IMG/VR virus record: IMGVR_UViG_3300045988_168372
Coordinates: 1-37,054 of that record
Length of the DNA stretch: 37,054 nucleotides
Source of the DNA: a virus
Reading direction: 5' to 3' (one strand)
Position 1 is the stretch's first letter. The number at the start of each line of letters is the position of its first letter. The position numbers and the translations under genes were made by a program. The notes under the pieces were generated by a model. It saw nothing but the letters and a program-made list of their open reading frames with translations. It ran no database searches and was not told the DNA's origin. This document shows positions 1,546 to 34,973 of this stretch, in pieces.

Positions 1546-1806
1546 ATGAGCATGGGAGCTATGAGGTGCAATAGGAAAGGGTGTAATGGATTAGTTGTAT
1601 ATGAAGATGCTGATTATGATTACAGAGAGGCTGTTTTAAATGGAGATTATATTGTAGATAATGATTTAGTATGTGATACATGTGGTAGAAAGTTCAAAGC
1701 AGTTGTTACACACACATTTATTTATGATGATGAAGAGCTTGGAGAAGTTGAAGAGTTAGAACATGCTTGTATAACAGAATGGTTAAGGAAACGTAATAAA
1801 CATTAA
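1546..1806 (+). CDS. Small zinc-ribbon-like protein
   Basis: Cys pairs CNRKGC and CDTCGRKF. RBS aagggagga. Last gene of the par operon, followed by a terminator. Confidence 0.5.
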   Translation: MSMGAMRCNRKGCNGLVVYEDADYDYREAVLNGDYIVDNDLVCDTCGRKFKAVVTHTFIYDDEELGEVEELEHACITEWLRKRNKH

Positions 1807-1832
1807 AAGAGTAGGGATACTACTCTTTTTTT
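1805..1832 (+). terminator. Intrinsic terminator of the par operon
   Basis: Stem AGAGTAG (1808-1814) / CTACTCT (1820-1826), 5-nt loop, then a T-run to 1832. Confidence 0.8.
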
Positions 1833-1845
1833 AATTTGAGAAAAT

Positions 1846-1879
1846 TTATCCACAGAAAATTGTTGTTATATGTGGATAA
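1846..1879. promoter_or_regulatory. Two perfect DnaA boxes in inverted orientation
   Basis: TTATCCACA at 1846-1854 and TGTGGATAA at 1871-1879. Both match the 9-mer consensus TTATCCACA exactly. They are 16 bp apart. Confidence 0.65.
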
Positions 1880-1886
1880 TTGATGT

Positions 1887-1919
1887 AAAATATTATTAAA
1901 ATATTATTCAAATATTTTT
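1887..1919. repeat. Three tandem AT-rich 11-mers (possible DNA-unwinding element)
   Basis: aaaatattatt (1887-1897), aaaatattatt (1898-1908), caaatattttt (1909-1919, 9/11 match), immediately after the DnaA-box pair. Confidence 0.5.
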
Positions 1920-1931
1920 AAGAAAAAATAC

Positions 1932-1961
1932 TTTACACTAATTGGTGACATGGTGTATAAT
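1932..1961 (+). promoter_or_regulatory. Sigma-A-type promoter facing the ORF-free region
   Basis: TTTACA (1932-1937), 18-nt spacer, TATAAT (1956-1961). No ORF of 60 aa or more lies downstream for ~800 nt. Confidence 0.6.
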
Positions 1962-1967
1962 AAGTAC

Positions 1968-2172
1968 ATAAATTAAATAAAAAAAAGTCCTCAACTCTTA
2001 TCTGACCGTTTGGCGACAGTTAGATAAGCCGAAACTTAATGGTACCGAAACTACCAAAAAGCTTGTTAGAGAACTCTTTAATATAATTCAAAATATAATA
2101 GAATTATATCAAAGTGTTATAGAATTTTCAAGTCATTTTTGCGTGGAATACCATGTGAAAATGACTTTTTTT
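1968..2172 (+). ncRNA. Candidate ~200-nt structured leader or small RNA ending at an intrinsic terminator
   Basis: Outer helix CTCAAC (1990-1995) / GTT(A)GAG (2065-2071). It encloses a 10-bp hairpin CTTATCTGAC (1997-2006) / GTTAGATAAG (2019-2028, one G-U pair) and hairpin GGTA/TACC (2041-2055). CCGAAAC occurs twice (2029, 2045). The 5' end is inferred from the promoter only. Confidence 0.45.
2130..2172 (+). terminator. Intrinsic terminator or attenuator inside the ORF-free region
   Basis: Stem AGTCATTTT (2131-2139) / AAAATGACT (2158-2166), inner GTGG/CCAT pairing, then a T-run 2167-2172. Confidence 0.65.
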
Positions 2173-2780
2173 ATTTAGTTTTTGAAAACTTAATATAGAA
2201 GCAACTGGAAATACAGAAAAACAGGATAAATAATCTGTGGATTAGTGACCGATATAAAAATCACTCGGCGTAGGATCATTACTCTCCATATGGTGCTATG
2301 TCGTCAGTTGAGTTTTCTTTATTCTCAACACCTACAGGATAGGTAAACAAAAATAAAGGGGTGGAACGCTAGGTACGGAAGTACGGAACTAAGACAAGCC
2401 TTTAGGTGCAGGTTGTGGGCTAGATGCAACTTGTTAAAGTCTTTTTTATTACAAGGAGAGTGCTAACCGAGGGAAACAATTCAGTAAACCCAACGTAAGT
2501 TTGTAACCCGTTTTTTTAGGGTTACTGCGTCCTCGGAAGTGTCCACAGTTCCCCAACGATAAGCCTTCGGCACTTAAATAGCAAGTGTTTACTTAAAGTT
2601 TTTTCTTAGGAACGCAGTTTAAAACTATTAGTTTTAGATTTATATAGGATATAAATTAGAAAGTATAGATTTTATAGAGATTAGTGTAAAGAGAATAAGA
2701 ATGGTGGTGATTATGAATAGGATAAGATACCAGGAATGAAAGTGTAGAAGGAGAGTGAAGGTGCCACTCTTCTTTTTTTT
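2173..2780 (+). ncRNA. Candidate large (~600 nt, or ~810 nt with leader) structured non-coding RNA of unknown class
   Basis: No ORF in either strand. Hand-counted G+C is 27/60 (2341-2400), 24/60 (2461-2520) and 30/60 (2521-2580), against 14/60 in coding line 4441-4500. Many helices are listed in the findings. G-U pairs only work on the plus strand. It ends at a plus-strand terminator at 2747-2780. Boundaries are approximate. Confidence 0.45.
2747..2780 (+). terminator. Intrinsic terminator closing the ORF-free region
   Basis: Stem GAAGGAGAGTG (2747-2757) / CACTCTTCTTT (2765-2775) with two G-U pairs, loop aaggtgc, T-run 2773-2780. No matching U-tract on the minus strand. Confidence 0.7.
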
Positions 2781-2781
2781 G

Positions 2782-3060
2782 TTACTCTAGTGCCTTATAT
2801 GTGGGAGCTTTAAAGCAATCATGCTTACAAAACTTACTATAAGGACAATTAGGACATAAAAAATGTACAAGTATTTCATCTGGGCAAACCTTTAACCATT
2901 TAGATAGTTCAAGGATCATTGGAACAGATGGAATAACCTCATAATGTTCTAACTGAGATATATAGGCTTGAGATACATTGCATCTTATGGCCAGCTCAGA
3001 TTGAGTAAGCTTTCTTTTTTTTCTTAGTTTTCTTATTACATTATTCAAAATAATCACCAC
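2782..3060 (-). CDS. XRE-family HTH regulator with Cys/His-rich C-terminal tail
   Basis: HTH KLTQSELAIRCNVSQAYISQLE, then CPDEILVHFLCPNCPYSKFCKHDC. Confidence 0.7.
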   Translation of the reverse strand: MVIILNNVIRKLRKKRKLTQSELAIRCNVSQAYISQLEHYEVIPSVPMILELSKWLKVCPDEILVHFLCPNCPYSKFCKHDCFKAPTYKALE

Positions 3061-3210
3061 GTCTAAATTTACTATATATAGTATCAGGTTATAAATAGTG
3101 AGTTAGTGGTAATTTTGTAGGAATATGTCGAGCGATATAAGTACCAGTTATATTTAGTCATGTTAAAATATTTTTGAAGTTAAAAAATATTTAGAGGTGG
3201 TAATATATAC

Positions 3211-4628: not shown

Positions 4629-4772
4629 ATGGAAAAATTAAGAGATAAGTTACATGAAGCTATAGATAAATATGGGTTAGATTACGATAAGGTTATAGAA
4701 GTTGATAAAAGACTTCATGAGGATATCATTAAGAAACAAAGATGTATATTAGGAGGGAAAGAAAATGCTTAA
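4629..4772 (+). CDS. Spo0E-like small helical protein (unlisted micro-ORF)
   Basis: 47 aa: MEKLRDKLHEAIDKYGLDYDKVIEVDKRLHEDIIKKQRCILGGKENA. Length and spacing match the Spo0E-family pattern (L-R-x-L ... G L ... V-I-E-x ... L-x-x-x-I ... Q-R). The catalytic SQELD motif position reads DKRLH. Confidence 0.45.
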   Translation: MEKLRDKLHEAIDKYGLDYDKVIEVDKRLHEDIIKKQRCILGGKENA

Positions 4773-33060: not shown

Positions 33061-34362
33061 ATGATACTAGAAGCGATGATAAGTGCAGCATTAGGTGGAG
33101 CGGTATATGGATATATTGAAAGTAGAAGAGAACAAAAAGAAGAAATAGAGTTAGAAAAAGAAAAAATAGAGCAATTAAATAATATTAATACATGGAAAAA
33201 GTGTTTAGAGCTTTCAGATACTAAAGGAATTAGAAATAAAATAGGAGAAACATTTTTGATAGAAAAGTATATAAAAACTGATTATGGATTTTTAGCTAAA
33301 GTAAAGGCGCCATTAGGATGTGATTGGATGGCTTTAAAAAATGTTGGAAGTGAAATAGAAACAGCATTTAAGGGAACTGTAGAAATAAAAAAAGATAAGT
33401 ATAGTGATTATATTGATATAGAAGTGATAACTAAGAAGCCAGAATTTGTTTTTAGTCCTATAAAAACAAATTGCAATGAATGGTTTGGAGGATTAAAAGC
33501 AAATGGAGAGCCATATCTAATTTCATTAGATGAAAATCCACATGTTTGTTATACAGGCACTACAGGAACAGGAAAAACATTCACTGAGTTTGTAAGTGTA
33601 ACCAATTTATTATATAACTATAAAAATGATTTTGAGGTTTATATAACTCAGTTGATAAATGGAGAGACTAAGATATTTTCTAAGTGTAAACCAGTTAAGC
33701 TTTTTGCAGATACTTTAGAAGAAGCATTAGTAATATTAAGGCAAGTAGCAGAAAAGGCTGATGCTAGAGCAAAAGAGTTAAATAAATATGGTTATGTAAG
33801 TGTAAAACATTGGAATGATGAAAATCCAGATAAAGCTTTTAAGAGAATAATTTTACTTATGGATGAATTTAGTTTCTTTAAGGTTGAAGAAGGAGATGGT
33901 GAGGAAGTTAAAAAATTAAAAAATGAATGTGAGATATATTTAAAAAGGATAGCTAAAACTGGGAGAGCTATGGCAATAAGCATTGTAATGGTATTGCAGA
34001 AAAGCACTGTAGAAAATGTAAATAGTACAATACGTTCTCAGATGTGTGTAATTAGCTTAAGGCAATTTTCAGGGCAAGATTCAAAGGTTGCAATAGGAAC
34101 AACTGAAGCAGCTAGATTAAATGAATTTGAAGCAATAATAAAAGGAAATGGAATATATGAGAAAGTATTTATACCAAGAATAAAATCAAAACAACCTCAG
34201 ATACATTTAGCTAAATATGTTCCTGAAATTGTTATACCTAAAAAAGGAGTTATTTTAAAAGAGAAAATTAAAGAAATACCAATAGAAGAAAAAACTAATA
34301 ATATAATAGTAGAGTCTAAGAAAAAGAAAATTAAAAAGAATAGAAATGTTAAGGGGGCTTAA
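33061..34362 (+). CDS. FtsK/SpoIIIE-family (TcpA/TraB-like) DNA-translocase ATPase
   Basis: N-terminal hydrophobic segment. Walker A YTGTTGTGKTF. Walker B RIILLMDEFSFF. Lys-rich tail. Confidence 0.8.
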   Translation: MILEAMISAALGGAVYGYIESRREQKEEIELEKEKIEQLNNINTWKKCLELSDTKGIRNKIGETFLIEKYIKTDYGFLAKVKAPLGCDWMALKNVGSEIETAFKGTVEIKKDKYSDYIDIEVITKKPEFVFSPIKTNCNEWFGGLKANGEPYLISLDENPHVCYTGTTGTGKTFTEFVSVTNLLYNYKNDFEVYITQLINGETKIFSKCKPVKLFADTLEEALVILRQVAEKADARAKELNKYGYVSVKHWNDENPDKAFKRIILLMDEFSFFKVEEGDGEEVKKLKNECEIYLKRIAKTGRAMAISIVMVLQKSTVENVNSTIRSQMCVISLRQFSGQDSKVAIGTTEAARLNEFEAIIKGNGIYEKVFIPRIKSKQPQIHLAKYVPEIVIPKKGVILKEKIKEIPIEEKTNNIIVESKKKKIKKNRNVKGA

Positions 34363-34364
34363 TT

Positions 34365-34973
34365 ATGCTTAAAGAAAGAGATTGGAACATTTTAAGGCAT
34401 ATAGAAATGTATGGAGCTATATCTCTTAAAAATGTAAGTAGTCTATATTTTGATGGTGAATATAAAACAGAAGAATATAGATATAGATGCGCTGCTAGAA
34501 GAATGCAGGCGTTGGAAAAGAAAGGGATACTTTTAAGCTATAGGAATAGCTATACTGAAGAAAAAATATTTTATTTAAATAAAAAAGTTTCTCCACATGA
34601 TTTATTTATACAAGATCTCTGGAGGAAGTTAAAAGAGTTGGATTTTAAAATTTTAGAGTTTAACACTAATGTTAGTTTAATGAACGGGCAATTAAAGCCA
34701 GATGCTTTAATTGTTGCTGACTATGAAGGAACTATAGTTAATTATTTTTTAGAAGTAGATTTAAATCATTACACTTCTAAGTCGAAATTAATTAAATATG
34801 AAATGTTTTATAAATCTGATGAATTTAAGAAGATTTGCAATTCAGAAAGTCCTTGTCTAATAATAGCAAGACCTACACATACCAGGGATATAAGATTAAC
34901 ATCTAAATTGTTTGATATCATTTATACAGATCTTAAATATTCTAAATTAGAGCGATTTATTTTTGAAGATTAA
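34365..34973 (+). CDS. Replication-relaxation family-like protein (winged HTH + PD-(D/E)xK-like core)
   Basis: N-terminus ERDWNILRHIEMYGAISLKNVSSLYF ... AARRMQALEKKGIL. Later KPDALIV ... YFLEVDLNHYT. Coupled to the ATPase gene. Confidence 0.55.
   Translation: MLKERDWNILRHIEMYGAISLKNVSSLYFDGEYKTEEYRYRCAARRMQALEKKGILLSYRNSYTEEKIFYLNKKVSPHDLFIQDLWRKLKELDFKILEFNTNVSLMNGQLKPDALIVADYEGTIVNYFLEVDLNHYTSKSKLIKYEMFYKSDEFKKICNSESPCLIIARPTHTRDIRLTSKLFDIIYTDLKYSKLERFIFED

What the first reader, a model, noticed from the sequence alone, without database searches (positions are those of the whole stretch)
2173..2780. Candidate large ornate non-coding RNA (~600-800 nt) in the only big ORF-free gap of the genome
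The replicon is almost gap-free, yet 1833-2781 has no ORF of 60 aa or more on either strand.

G+C jumps to 40-50% by hand count (27/60, 24/60 and 30/60 in three lines), against about 23% in a coding line. That is the classic signature of structured RNA in AT-rich genomes.

Helices I can read directly:
- 2235-2241 CTGTGGA with 2542-2548 TCCACAG (long range)
- 2270-2274 GTAGG with 2331-2335 CCTAC, enclosing hairpin 2307-2312 GTTGAG / 2324-2329 CTCAAC
- 2400-2404 CTTTA / 2435-2439 TAAAG, stacked on 2409-2415 CAGGTTG / 2427-2433 CAACTTG
- 2467-2472 CCGAGG with 2531-2536 CCTCGG, enclosing the perfect hairpin 2503-2509 GTAACCC / 2519-2525 GGGTTAC
- 2526-2530 TGCGT with 2612-2616 ACGCA

The G-U pairs in these helices and in the leader would be C-A mismatches on the other strand, and both terminators are plus-oriented. 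The RNA therefore reads left to right.

Other features are a palindromic CCATATGG (2286-2293) and a tandem GTACGGAA GTACGGAA (2372-2387).

Large ornate RNAs of unknown function, ROOL (~580 nt) and GOLLD (~800 nt), are reported mainly in prophages of Firmicutes, so size and context fit that class. I cannot verify membership by eye, and it may be a new family.
Basis: partly seen in the sequence, partly recalled or inferred. Interest (0 to 1): 0.85.

Follow-up and report, generated by a model that had tools for sequence, protein, structure and literature searches.

The report
RNA-based plasmid replication module candidate
The flagged gap holds a real, conserved, plus-strand structured RNA, not ROOL or GOLLD, that sits behind a replication-control leader shared with many small Clostridium plasmids lacking any initiator gene, so it probably takes the place of a replication protein.

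Summary
The gap (1807-2781), the G+C rise (about 41% against 28%) and the plus-strand orientation are real. No Rfam family matches, so this is not ROOL or GOLLD.

The unit is larger than flagged. It comprises DnaA boxes, two promoters, a roughly 200-nt leader ending in a terminator (about 1968-2172), a conserved antisense promoter, and a roughly 400-nt G+C-rich multi-hairpin domain (2205-2600).

Covariation across 6-7 lineages supports the leader (19 of 45 pairs compensatory) and the 3' domain (16 of 103). The "tandem repeat" is a GNRA hairpin.

A model of the leader finds it in five or six of seven small Clostridium plasmids (3.3-12.4 kb). These share no protein and have no recognisable Rep gene. 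There it precedes other G+C-rich RNA domains, one of them the orphan EGFOA RNA, twice followed by an RNase H1 hybrid-binding-domain gene.

In one ParM-carrying IMG/VR viral contig the same leader precedes a DnaD-like replication initiator gene.

Best reading (about 0.5): an antisense-controlled replicon whose payload is an RNA instead of a Rep protein. Function is inferred, not shown.

The parts
1846..1854 (+). Perfect DnaA box TTATCCACA.
   Evidence: This is one of only two perfect boxes in the 37-kb window. L002 has a perfect box at the homologous place. L049, L054 and L055 have degenerate versions.
1863..1891 (+). Promoter-like P0: -35 TTGTTA (1863-1868), a 17-nt spacer holding the second perfect DnaA box TGTGGATAA (1871-1879, minus-strand TTATCCACA), and -10 TAAAAT (1886-1891).
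   Evidence: The box and the -10 hexamer are invariant, the -35 is near-invariant (TTGTAG in L055), and the 17-nt spacing is kept in the sequences read base by base (window, L054, L055), as read from alignment A6. The scan lists it at 9 of 12 matches. L008 also has a perfect DnaA box inside a promoter spacer.
1932..1961 (+). Sense promoter P1: TTTACA, 18-nt spacer, TATAAT. The start of transcription is inferred near 1968.
   Evidence: It matches 11 of 12 consensus positions. GTGTATAAT is invariant in all 8 lineages, and the -35 is kept.
1968..2172 (+). Leader RNA, made of these elements:
- A-run 1978-1985.
- Three-way junction: P1 1987-1995/2065-2074, H1 1997-2010/2015-2028 with apical loop UGGC (2011-2014; the conserved GUUUGGCGAC motif spans 2008-2017), and H2 2040-2044/2052-2056.
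- Hairpin H3 2081-2089/2101-2109.
- Intrinsic terminator 2130-2167.
   Evidence: In 7 lineages 19 of 45 pairs have compensatory changes and 97.4% of cells are paired. None of 500 shuffles reaches these values, and slid controls give 36-47% paired. P1 was not part of that count; it was read by eye and written into model R2. R2 finds the leader in small Clostridium plasmids and in L008.
2103..2131 (-). Antisense promoter: -35 TTGAAA (2131-2126), 17-nt spacer, extended -10 TGnTATAAT (2111-2103). It would give a countertranscript across the leader, from about 2096 leftwards.
   Evidence: It matches 11 of 12 positions with TG. The window, L054 and L055, read base by base, keep the -10 and the exact 17-nt spacing and a -35 of TTGAAA or TTGATA, while the spacer sequence differs. 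pSM101A has an equivalent site at 9531-9503. No RNA data exist.
2053..2144 (+). Candidate anti-terminator pairing of 2053-2065 with 2129-2144. It is mutually exclusive with the terminator's 5' arm.
   Evidence: It appears when the leader is folded without the terminator's 3' arm, in the window, L002 and L049. 84% of cells are paired, against 32-50% when slid, but there is no covariation. This part is inferred.
2205..2600 (+). Lineage-specific G+C-rich structured domain, the core of the finding:
- Hairpins 2212-2217/2234-2239, 2244-2248/2261-2265 and 2266-2279/2290-2303 (invariant loop UACUCUCCAU).
- Hairpins 2307-2312/2324-2329 and 2330-2334/2340-2344.
- GNRA hairpin 2373-2376/2381-2384.
- Hairpins 2398-2400/2405-2407, 2408-2417/2425-2434 and 2503-2509/2519-2525.
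   Evidence: In 6 sequences 16 of 103 pairs have compensatory changes, 97.6% of cells are paired and none of 500 shuffles reaches the observed values. Slid controls give 37-43% paired. G+C is 0.407. Identity to L049, L050, L051 and L002 is 80-83%. There is no Rfam match.
2601..2776 (+). Non-conserved A+T-rich tail ending in a plus-oriented intrinsic terminator (2746-2776), just before the stop codon of the convergent HTH gene.
   Evidence: The terminator was found. The tail does not align between lineages, but L002 and L049 carry a hairpin at the same place.
2782..3060 (-). Convergent 92-aa XRE-family HTH protein with a Cys-rich C-terminus (CPNCPYS..C..DC). It is a possible CopR/CopG-like partner of the module.
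   Evidence: Pfam HTH_3 matches at E = 2.6e-11. A homologue lies next to the RNA module in every lineage that has it: L049, L050, L051, L002, L054 and L055. Its role is inferred.

Best explanation
The flagged region is the 3' 'payload' domain of a two-part non-coding module that acts as the plasmid-state replication and copy-control unit of this Clostridium perfringens phage-plasmid.

How it is proposed to work:
1. Promoters P0 and P1 lie just downstream of the DnaA boxes; one box sits inside the P0 spacer. They transcribe a roughly 200-nt leader that folds into a three-way junction, a hairpin and an intrinsic terminator.
2. A conserved convergent promoter makes a countertranscript complementary to the leader.
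3. As in pT181 and pIP501, pairing of the two RNAs is proposed to favour the terminator. This sets how often transcription reads through into the roughly 400-nt G+C-rich structured domain (2205-2600).
4. That domain occupies the place that a Rep gene occupies behind the same leader in a ParM-carrying IMG/VR contig. It is proposed to act as an RNA initiator, most simply a ColE1-RNA-II-like pre-primer or R-loop former that uses only host enzymes.

What is shown: the RNA structures (by covariation), the promoters and terminators (as conserved sequence features), the distribution of the module, and the absence of a recognisable Rep gene.

What is inferred: that both RNAs are made, the attenuation step, and any role in priming or replication.
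For: 1. Structure is real on the plus strand, in the leader and the 3' domain.

2. Across lineages with about 68% identity, P0 (with the DnaA box in its spacer), P1 and the antisense promoter keep their hexamers (one -35 base differs in L055 for P0 and for the antisense promoter). The antisense spacer keeps its 17-nt length while its sequence varies.

3. The window has no recognisable initiator, helicase, loader or primase.
- Pfam, PHROGs and NCBIfam find none.
- tblastn with two related initiators finds nothing.
- Yet a 99% identical element exists as a closed circular 36.3-kb plasmid.

4. Leader model R2 was built only from the phage-plasmid lineages.
- It finds the leader in L008 (E = 4e-4).
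- There the leader comes with a perfect DnaA box in a promoter spacer and a terminator-like hairpin.
- It sits directly before the ribosome-binding site and ATG of a 278-aa protein.
- That protein matches PHROG 'DnaD-like helicase loader' (8e-23) and several 'replication initiation protein' families.

5. R2 also finds the leader in plasmids of 3.6-12.4 kb: L180 (7.6e-6), L178 (8.8e-5), L175 (4.7e-4), L177 (2.2e-3), L176 (3.6e-3) and L181 (0.05).
- Where the 3' domain was also located by BLAST or Rfam (L175, L176, L177, L178, L180), the leader lies upstream of it and in the same orientation.
- L179 shows the leader only by BLAST; R2 gave E = 0.17 elsewhere in that record.
- These domains have G+C of 0.385-0.41 against a background of 0.24-0.29.

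6. Those seven plasmids share no ORF of 50 aa or more, and no recognisable Rep was found in the larger ORFs checked.

7. In L177 and L178 the RNA domain is followed directly by a small protein that is only an RNase H1 N-terminal RNA-DNA-hybrid-binding domain (PF01693). This fits an R-loop intermediate.

8. Small CopG or HTH regulators lie next to the module in several cases. pMV158 and pIP501 have the same arrangement (from established knowledge).
Against: - There is no transcript, copy-number or replication data of any kind.
- The window has a 202-aa protein with weak hits to PHROG 'replication initiation' families (2e-5, 8e-5) and a faint Pfam Replic_Relax hit, next to a TraB/FtsK-like ATPase. 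This pair could be the real initiator.
- That protein's homologues also sit in 2-3-Mb chromosomal contigs. It was not found in the 6 kb upstream of parM in L002.
- The window's own 3' domain matches none of the small-plasmid domains, so its link to them rests only on the shared leader and position.
- The anti-terminator shows no covariation.
- No convincing terminator was found for the countertranscript.
- DnaA boxes are absent from the pSM101A module.
- Unrecognised small initiator proteins in the small plasmids cannot be excluded.
- Most relatives found through ParM show no consistent 'replicon slot' downstream of parM.
Confidence: 0.5

Rival explanations
1. It is a trans-acting or structural RNA unrelated to replication. 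Like EGFOA, ROOL or GOLLD, it would be a self-assembling or regulatory RNA serving phage or plasmid biology, for example immunity, anti-defence or host manipulation. Its expression would simply be driven by a portable antisense-controlled leader cassette.
For: - In L054 and pSM101A the payload at the same position is EGFOA, an orphan RNA. Its only reported property is homo-oligomerisation (bioRxiv 10.64898/2026.07.01.735769).
- Three unrelated payload classes sit behind one leader, which suggests cargo exchange.
- The invariant C/U-rich loop UACUCUCCAU (2280-2289) resembles the anti-Shine-Dalgarno seed loops of Firmicute small RNAs (inference).
- The module lies next to the lysogeny switch genes.
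Against: - It does not explain how plasmids of 3.3-5 kb replicate when they share nothing but this module.
- It does not explain why the same leader heads a replication-initiator gene in L008.
- It does not explain why RNase H1 hybrid-binding-domain genes follow the module.
Confidence: 0.25
2. The replicon is DNA-level only. The region is the origin, with DnaA boxes, an unwinding element and hairpins that work as DNA, for example a single-strand origin or primosome site. The leader RNA only regulates, and the 3' domain need not be a functional RNA.
For: - The two perfect DnaA boxes are the only ones in 37 kb and are conserved.
- An A+T-rich stretch lies at 1880-1930.
- Compensatory changes would also preserve single-stranded DNA hairpins.
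Against: - There are 78 G-U cells in the 3' domain.
- A GNRA loop is kept as GNRA (GGAA to GGGA).
- A plus-oriented terminator follows the region. These features are typical of RNA.
- A single-strand origin needs a rolling-circle Rep, and none is found in the window or in the small plasmids.
- DnaA boxes are missing from the pSM101A version.
Confidence: 0.1
3. It is a long cis-regulatory 5' leader for downstream genes, as in the small plasmids where genes for an RNase H1 hybrid-binding-domain (HBD) protein and a CopG regulator follow in the same direction. In this phage-plasmid it would have lost its gene.
For: In L177, L178 and L175 small genes follow the RNA domain on the same strand. In L008 the leader directly precedes a gene.
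Against: - In all phage-plasmid lineages with the module the next gene is convergent.
- In the window a terminator closes the unit.
- The 3' domain is conserved at 80-83% with compensatory changes and a fully invariant 95-nt core, so it is under selection itself.
- No gene remnant is present.
Confidence: 0.07

Closest known systems
[quoted passage not shown]
   Same: - It occupies the same position behind the same leader in L054 (43.3 bits; gathering score 37.7) and in pSM101A (40.6 bits).
- That 3' domain is similarly G+C-rich, at about 0.39.
- By eye the window core 2366-2445 has a similar layout: a CUAG motif, a small capped hairpin, then a helix enclosing a short hairpin and a hairpin whose loop contains GCUAGA, followed by UAAAG.
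   Different: - The Rfam model gives no match in the window, even at E up to 10 on 136 nt.
- My model of the window core does not find the EGFOA copy in L054.
- There is no sequence similarity by BLAST or nhmmer.
- It is therefore not a demonstrable member.
ColE1-type replicon (RNA II pre-primer and RNA I antisense; no plasmid initiator protein)
   Same: - No recognisable Rep gene.
- A promoter several hundred nucleotides upstream of a structured non-coding RNA.
- A convergent promoter for a countertranscript to the 5' part.
- Multi-stem-loop 5' target.
- Genes for an RNA-DNA hybrid-binding domain lie next to related modules.
   Different: - There is no homology to RNA I or RNA II (no Rfam match).
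- The host is a Firmicute.
- An intrinsic terminator lies between the target and the payload, which suggests attenuation rather than a refolding control.
- DnaA boxes lie upstream of the promoters.
- R-loop formation, RNase H cleavage and Pol I extension are all untested.
Countertranscript-driven transcription attenuation of rep leaders in pT181, pIP501 and pAMbeta1
   Same: - Convergent sense and antisense promoters about 130 nt apart.
- A terminator directly after the overlap.
- A candidate anti-terminator.
- A small HTH or CopG-type regulator nearby.
- In L008 a replication-initiator gene follows the leader.
   Different: In the window and the small plasmids the regulated product is a structured RNA, not a rep mRNA. 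There is no sequence homology, and the anti-terminator is unproven.
ROOL and GOLLD large ornate RNAs
   Same: Large, G+C-rich relative to the genome, multi-hairpin, on a phage-related element of a Firmicute, and of unknown biochemical function.
   Different: There is no covariance-model match. The locus consists of a leader plus a payload, and the comparative context is plasmid replication control.
pLS20 minimal replicon of Bacillus subtilis: a 1.1-kb replicon without an ORF (recalled from Meijer et al. 1995, not checked here)
   Same: A Firmicute plasmid replicon of about 1 kb with many dyad symmetries and no initiator ORF.
   Different: A distant BLAST search of PLSDB found no similarity. 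Whether pLS20 uses an RNA is not known to me.

Membership tests
ROOL (Rfam) and GOLLD (Rfam) | A match to the family covariance model | tested here: not met
   There is no match at gathering score in the whole window. Neither family appears at E up to 10 in 1780-2860.
EGFOA RNA (RF02955) | A match to the Rfam covariance model at or above 37.7 bits | tested here: not met
   The window has no match at E up to 10, even on the 136-nt core. The criterion is met in L054 (43.3 bits) and in pSM101A (40.6 bits) at the equivalent position.
EGFOA RNA (RF02955) | Detectable homology between the window core and a bona fide EGFOA copy | tested here: not met
   Model R1 of window 2346-2452 does not find L054 2739-2835. 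The best unrelated match has E = 0.019.
ColE1-type RNA-primed replicon | No plasmid-encoded initiator protein | tested here: inconclusive
   Pfam, PHROGs, NCBIfam and tblastn find no Rep, DnaD-like or helicase genes. However, a 202-aa protein has weak hits to 'replication initiation' PHROG families.
ColE1-type RNA-primed replicon | An antisense RNA complementary to the 5' part of the pre-primer | tested here: inconclusive
   A conserved extended -10 promoter in antisense orientation keeps its 17-nt spacing in the sequences read base by base. The RNA itself has not been observed.
ColE1-type RNA-primed replicon | R-loop formation at the origin, RNase H processing and Pol I extension | not testable with these tools
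   The only evidence is indirect. Genes for the RNase H1 hybrid-binding domain follow the related modules in L177 and L178.
ColE1-type RNA-primed replicon | Homology to RNA I or RNA II | tested here: not met
   No Rfam match.
pT181/pIP501-type countertranscript attenuation | Convergent promoters with overlapping transcripts, and an intrinsic terminator just downstream of the overlap | tested here: met
   P1 lies at 1932-1961, the antisense promoter at 2131-2103 and the terminator at 2130-2167. All are conserved.
pT181/pIP501-type countertranscript attenuation | A conserved alternative (anti-terminator) pairing | tested here: inconclusive
   The pairing 2053-2065 with 2129-2144 has 84% of cells paired, against 32-50% when slid, with no compensatory change.
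pT181/pIP501-type countertranscript attenuation | A rep ORF downstream of the attenuator | tested here: not met
   The window has no ORF there. The criterion is met in L008, where a 278-aa DnaD-like initiator follows the leader.

The most novel reading that the evidence does not exclude
A broad family of Clostridium plasmids and phage-plasmids replicates without any initiator protein. Behind a common antisense-controlled leader, a structured RNA does the job that a DnaD-like Rep protein does in a sister element. At least three unrelated RNA folds fill this role: the orphan EGFOA RNA, the L055/C. chauvoei type, and the fold in this window. This would give EGFOA its first function. It would also define a Gram-positive counterpart of ColE1 with interchangeable RNA and protein initiators.
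Probability: 0.4. Interest if true: 0.9.

Novelty: new variant of a known kind. Interest (0 to 1): 0.78.

Why it matters
- If the module is a protein-free replicon, it is the first RNA-dependent replicon class described for Clostridia, as far as the held literature shows (searches found nothing).
- It would explain how a 37-kb phage-plasmid, and many plasmids of 3-12 kb with no recognisable Rep gene, are maintained.
- It would give a functional context to EGFOA. That RNA has solved quaternary structures but no known role.
- It would offer compact new vector backbones and incompatibility groups for clostridial genetics.
- Even if the replication role is wrong, the leader and the 3' domain are two new covariation-supported RNA families. 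They show clear modular exchange between an RNA payload and a protein payload.

Tried and rejected
- **Known RNA families.** Rfam gave nothing in the window at gathering score or at permissive thresholds.
- **tRNA or tmRNA.** None found.
- **Thermodynamic stability.** Not significant on either strand (z = -1.35 and -1.59).
- **Coding or pseudogene.** Small ORFs are not conserved in frame between lineages (read). There are no tblastn remnants of related initiators.
- **Exact-pattern scans.** Two core motifs were scanned in viral contigs and the 18-mer also in genome and metagenome contigs. They found only L002's contig, one identical metagenome contig and chance hits.
- **Gapped DnaA-box/-10 pattern.** It returned only chance matches.
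- **Finding relatives through proteins.** Searches through ParM and the 92-aa HTH protein gave few useful loci. The cI-like repressor was the productive route.
- **A 'replicon slot' downstream of parM.** Not consistent across ParM relatives.
- **EGFOA membership of the window core.** Rejected by two tests.
- **The 202-aa protein as a clear Rep.** There is no PDB sequence match. Its homologues are chromosomal as well. The question is left open.
- **GC skew as an origin marker.** Uninformative, because nearly all genes are co-oriented.
- **Literature.** Searches found no description of this module or of clostridial plasmids without a Rep gene. The supplement of the paper that defined EGFOA is not held.
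Full report
**1. What the window is**

The window is a roughly 37-kb Clostridium perfringens phage-plasmid.
- The flagged region and its flanks (window 1800-3100) are 98.7-99% identical to plasmid pZ1322WCP0013-3, a 36.3-kb circular record.
- The 86-aa protein encoded at 1546-1806 occurs on near-identical contigs of 36-37 kb in gut metagenome and isolate assemblies.
- It carries a ParM-type partition operon, a resolvase, cI-like and Cro-like regulators, a terminase, structural genes, a holin and an amidase.

**2. The observation**

Between the terminator of the 86-aa gene (1805-1829) and the stop codon of a convergent HTH gene (2782) there is no ORF of 60 aa or more. At 975 nt this is the largest gap in the window.
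- G+C reaches 0.40-0.415 over 2201-2600, against 0.285 overall.
- Two plus-oriented intrinsic terminators lie at 2130-2167 and 2746-2776.
- Folding energy alone is not significant.
- Rfam 15 gives no match at gathering score in the window. At E up to 10 it gives no match to ROOL, GOLLD or any other credible family in 1780-2860.

**3. Homologues**

DNA searches of phage and plasmid collections found only the near-identical plasmid. Exact-pattern scans found one viral contig (L002, 80% identity) and one identical metagenome contig.

Homologues of the neighbouring cI-like repressor led to more lineages:
- L049 at 83% identity.
- L050 and L051 at about 81%.
- L054 and L055 at about 68%, where only the 5' part aligns.

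The conserved block runs from about 1846 to about 2600. The stretch 2601-2745 does not align.

**4. Anatomy**

*DnaA boxes.* The only two perfect DnaA boxes in the window are at 1846-1854 and 1871-1879. The second is invariant in all 8 sequences. The L002 locus likewise has just two perfect boxes, at the homologous place.

*Promoter P0.* The second box lies inside the 17-nt spacer of a conserved promoter-like element, TTGTTA-17-TAAAAT (1863-1891).

*Promoter P1.* TTTACA-18-TATAAT (1932-1961) matches 11 of 12 consensus positions, and its GTGTATAAT is invariant.

*Leader (about 1968-2172).* It folds into a three-way junction, a hairpin and the terminator.
- Over 7 lineages, 19 of 45 pairs show changes on both sides and 97.4% of cells are paired.
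- None of 500 shuffles reaches these values. Slid controls give 36-47% paired.

*Antisense promoter.* On the minus strand an extended -10 promoter reads TTGAAA, 17 nt, TGnTATAAT (2131-2103).
- Across the most divergent lineages it keeps its -10 and 17-nt spacing, and a -35 of TTGAAA or TTGATA.
- The spacer sequence differs between them.
- It would give a countertranscript across the leader.

*Anti-terminator.* A candidate pairing (2053-2065 with 2129-2144) appears in truncated folds. It is 84% compatible across lineages but shows no covariation.

*3' domain (2205-2600).* This is a series of hairpins followed by a multi-branch core.
- 16 of 103 pairs are compensatory and 97.6% of cells are paired. 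None of 500 shuffles reaches these values, and slid controls give 37-43%.
- The best supported elements are the five hairpins of 2212-2344, the GNRA hairpin at 2373-2384 (GGAA becomes GGGA with a compensating stem change in L049) and the hairpin 2408-2434.
- 78 G-U cells favour the plus strand.

**5.

- Three are confirmed: 2307/2324, 2409/2427 and 2503/2519.
- The long-range 2235/2542 pairing is contradicted by covariation for local alternatives.
- The 2270/2331 pairing is contradicted in the same way.
- 2526/2612 leaves the conserved block.
- 2467/2531 is unresolved.
- 2400/2435 was not tested.
- The 'tandem repeat' is the GNRA hairpin.
- CCATATGG is not conserved.

**6. The region is not coding**

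Small ORFs lose their frame between lineages. tblastn with related initiator proteins finds nothing in the gap or elsewhere in the window.

**7. The decisive context**

*L054.* In L054 the sequence downstream of the same leader contains an EGFOA RNA, at 43.3 bits against a gathering score of 37.7.

*Small plasmids.* The 3' parts of L054 and L055 match unannotated regions of many small Clostridium plasmids at 70-76% identity. Examples are:
- pZ1322WCP0014-3 (3.6 kb).
- A C. chauvoei plasmid (3.9 kb).
- A C. septicum plasmid (5.3 kb).
- pCP118-4k (4.0 kb).
- pZ1322HCP0005-4 (3.3 kb).
- pSM101A (12.4 kb).
- pCTK01 (62.8 kb).

pSM101A also carries EGFOA, at 40.6 bits.

*The leader in those plasmids.* Covariance model R2, built only from the phage-plasmid leaders, finds the leader in six of seven small plasmids examined.
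- E values run from 7.6e-6 to 0.0036 in five of them.
- The sixth (L181) is borderline at 0.05.
- The seventh (L179) shows the leader only by BLAST.
- In the five plasmids where the 3' domain was also located, the leader lies upstream of it and in the same orientation.
- The H1 apical-loop motif GUUUGGCGAC and the segment from H2 through AAGAAGCU are conserved.

*No shared protein.* After allowing for ORFs that cross the record start, these plasmids encode a varied set of proteins:
- A MobV relaxase.
- A restriction-modification pair.
- A toxin and CopG.
- Small HTH proteins.
- A bacteriocin operon.

No ORF of 50 aa or more is common to all of them, and no recognisable Rep was found in the larger ORFs checked.

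*Hybrid-binding domain.* In L177 and L178 the RNA domain is followed directly by a small protein that consists only of the RNase H1 N-terminal hybrid-binding domain.

*L008.* R2 also hits L008 (E = 4e-4), an IMG/VR viral contig whose ParM is 66% identical to the window's.
- There the leader comes with a perfect DnaA box inside a promoter spacer and a terminator-like hairpin.
- It directly precedes the ribosome-binding site and ATG of a 278-aa protein.
- That protein matches 'DnaD-like helicase loader' (8e-23) and several 'replication initiation protein' PHROG families.

**8. Interpretation**

The leader is a replication-control leader.
- Its payload is an initiator protein in L008.
- Its payload is a G+C-rich structured RNA in the window, its relatives and the small plasmids.
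- There are three sequence-unrelated payload classes, each with G+C of 0.385-0.41.

The window itself has no recognisable initiator. The most economical reading is therefore an antisense-controlled, attenuator-gated replicon whose effector is an RNA. It would work like ColE1 RNA II, perhaps through an R-loop. DnaA boxes would tie transcription or helicase loading to the host. The neighbouring 92-aa HTH protein, or CopG in the small plasmids, would be a CopR/CopG-like second controller. All functional steps are inferred.

**9. Caveats**

- A 202-aa protein has weak 'replication initiation' and Replic_Relax similarity and lies next to a TraB/FtsK-like ATPase at 33061-34973. It could be the initiator. 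Its homologues are also chromosomal.
- The window's own 3' domain has no relative outside its lineage.
- It is not demonstrably EGFOA.
- No RNA or replication data exist.

**10. Verdict**

The ROOL/GOLLD idea is wrong. The most likely role is plasmid replication and copy control with an RNA in place of a Rep protein (confidence about 0.5).

Noticed in passing
window 1863-1891; L008 7321-7349: A perfect DnaA box sits inside the 17-nt spacer of a conserved promoter-like element. The arrangement recurs in L008 with the box in the other orientation. This suggests the module's transcription is controlled by DnaA.
   Followed up: partly
window 2280-2289 and 2453-2461: The invariant apical loop UACUCUCCAU contains ACUCUCC (2281-2287). 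This is perfectly complementary to the invariant GGAGAGU (2455-2461). It could be a long-range pseudoknot, or alternatively an anti-Shine-Dalgarno seed. There is no covariation because both segments are invariant.
   Followed up: no
window 33061-34973: A TraB/FtsK-like ATPase (433 aa) is followed by a 202-aa protein with faint Replic_Relax and 'replication initiation' similarity. Homologues of the 202-aa protein at 70-75% identity lie in C. perfringens chromosomal contigs of 2-3 Mb, so the 202-aa gene at least also occurs on integrated elements. In L008 the same pair follows the leader and the rep gene.
   Followed up: partly
window 2782-3060 (minus strand): A 92-aa XRE-type HTH protein has a conserved Cys-rich tail (FLCPNCPYS..C..DCF). 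It is found next to the RNA module, on the opposite strand, in every lineage that has the module.
   Followed up: partly
L177 4529-4756; L178 10200-10535: These are stand-alone RNase H1 N-terminal (RNA-DNA hybrid-binding) domain proteins of 75 and 111 aa with no nuclease domain. They are encoded directly downstream of the EGFOA-type RNA domain on small Clostridium plasmids.
   Followed up: partly
L054 2739-2835 (minus strand); L178 9763-9881: EGFOA RNAs pass the Rfam gathering score and lie inside plasmid and phage-plasmid non-coding modules, behind the leader. This gives a genomic context for an orphan RNA family.
   Followed up: yes
L179, L180, L181 (PLSDB records): ORFs that cross the record start are missing from the PLSDB gene tables: MobV relaxases of 400 and 443 aa, and a 329-aa cytosine methyltransferase. 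Plasmids can therefore look emptier than they are. L179 and L181 are typed 'non-mobilizable' although they encode a MobV-type relaxase, identified by its HxDE..PHxH motif.
   Followed up: partly
PLSDB records NZ_CP148591.1, NZ_CP148655.1 and others (25.8 kb): Several 25.8-kb C. perfringens plasmid records contain the module twice, and 12.9-kb relatives contain it once. The larger records are probably head-to-tail dimers or assembly duplications.
   Followed up: no
window 4629-4772: A 47-aa Spo0E-like aspartyl-phosphate phosphatase gene lies in the early region of the phage-plasmid and is conserved in relatives. It could let the element interfere with host sporulation.
   Followed up: no
The fold of 2460-2560 is therefore unresolved.
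   Followed up: partly
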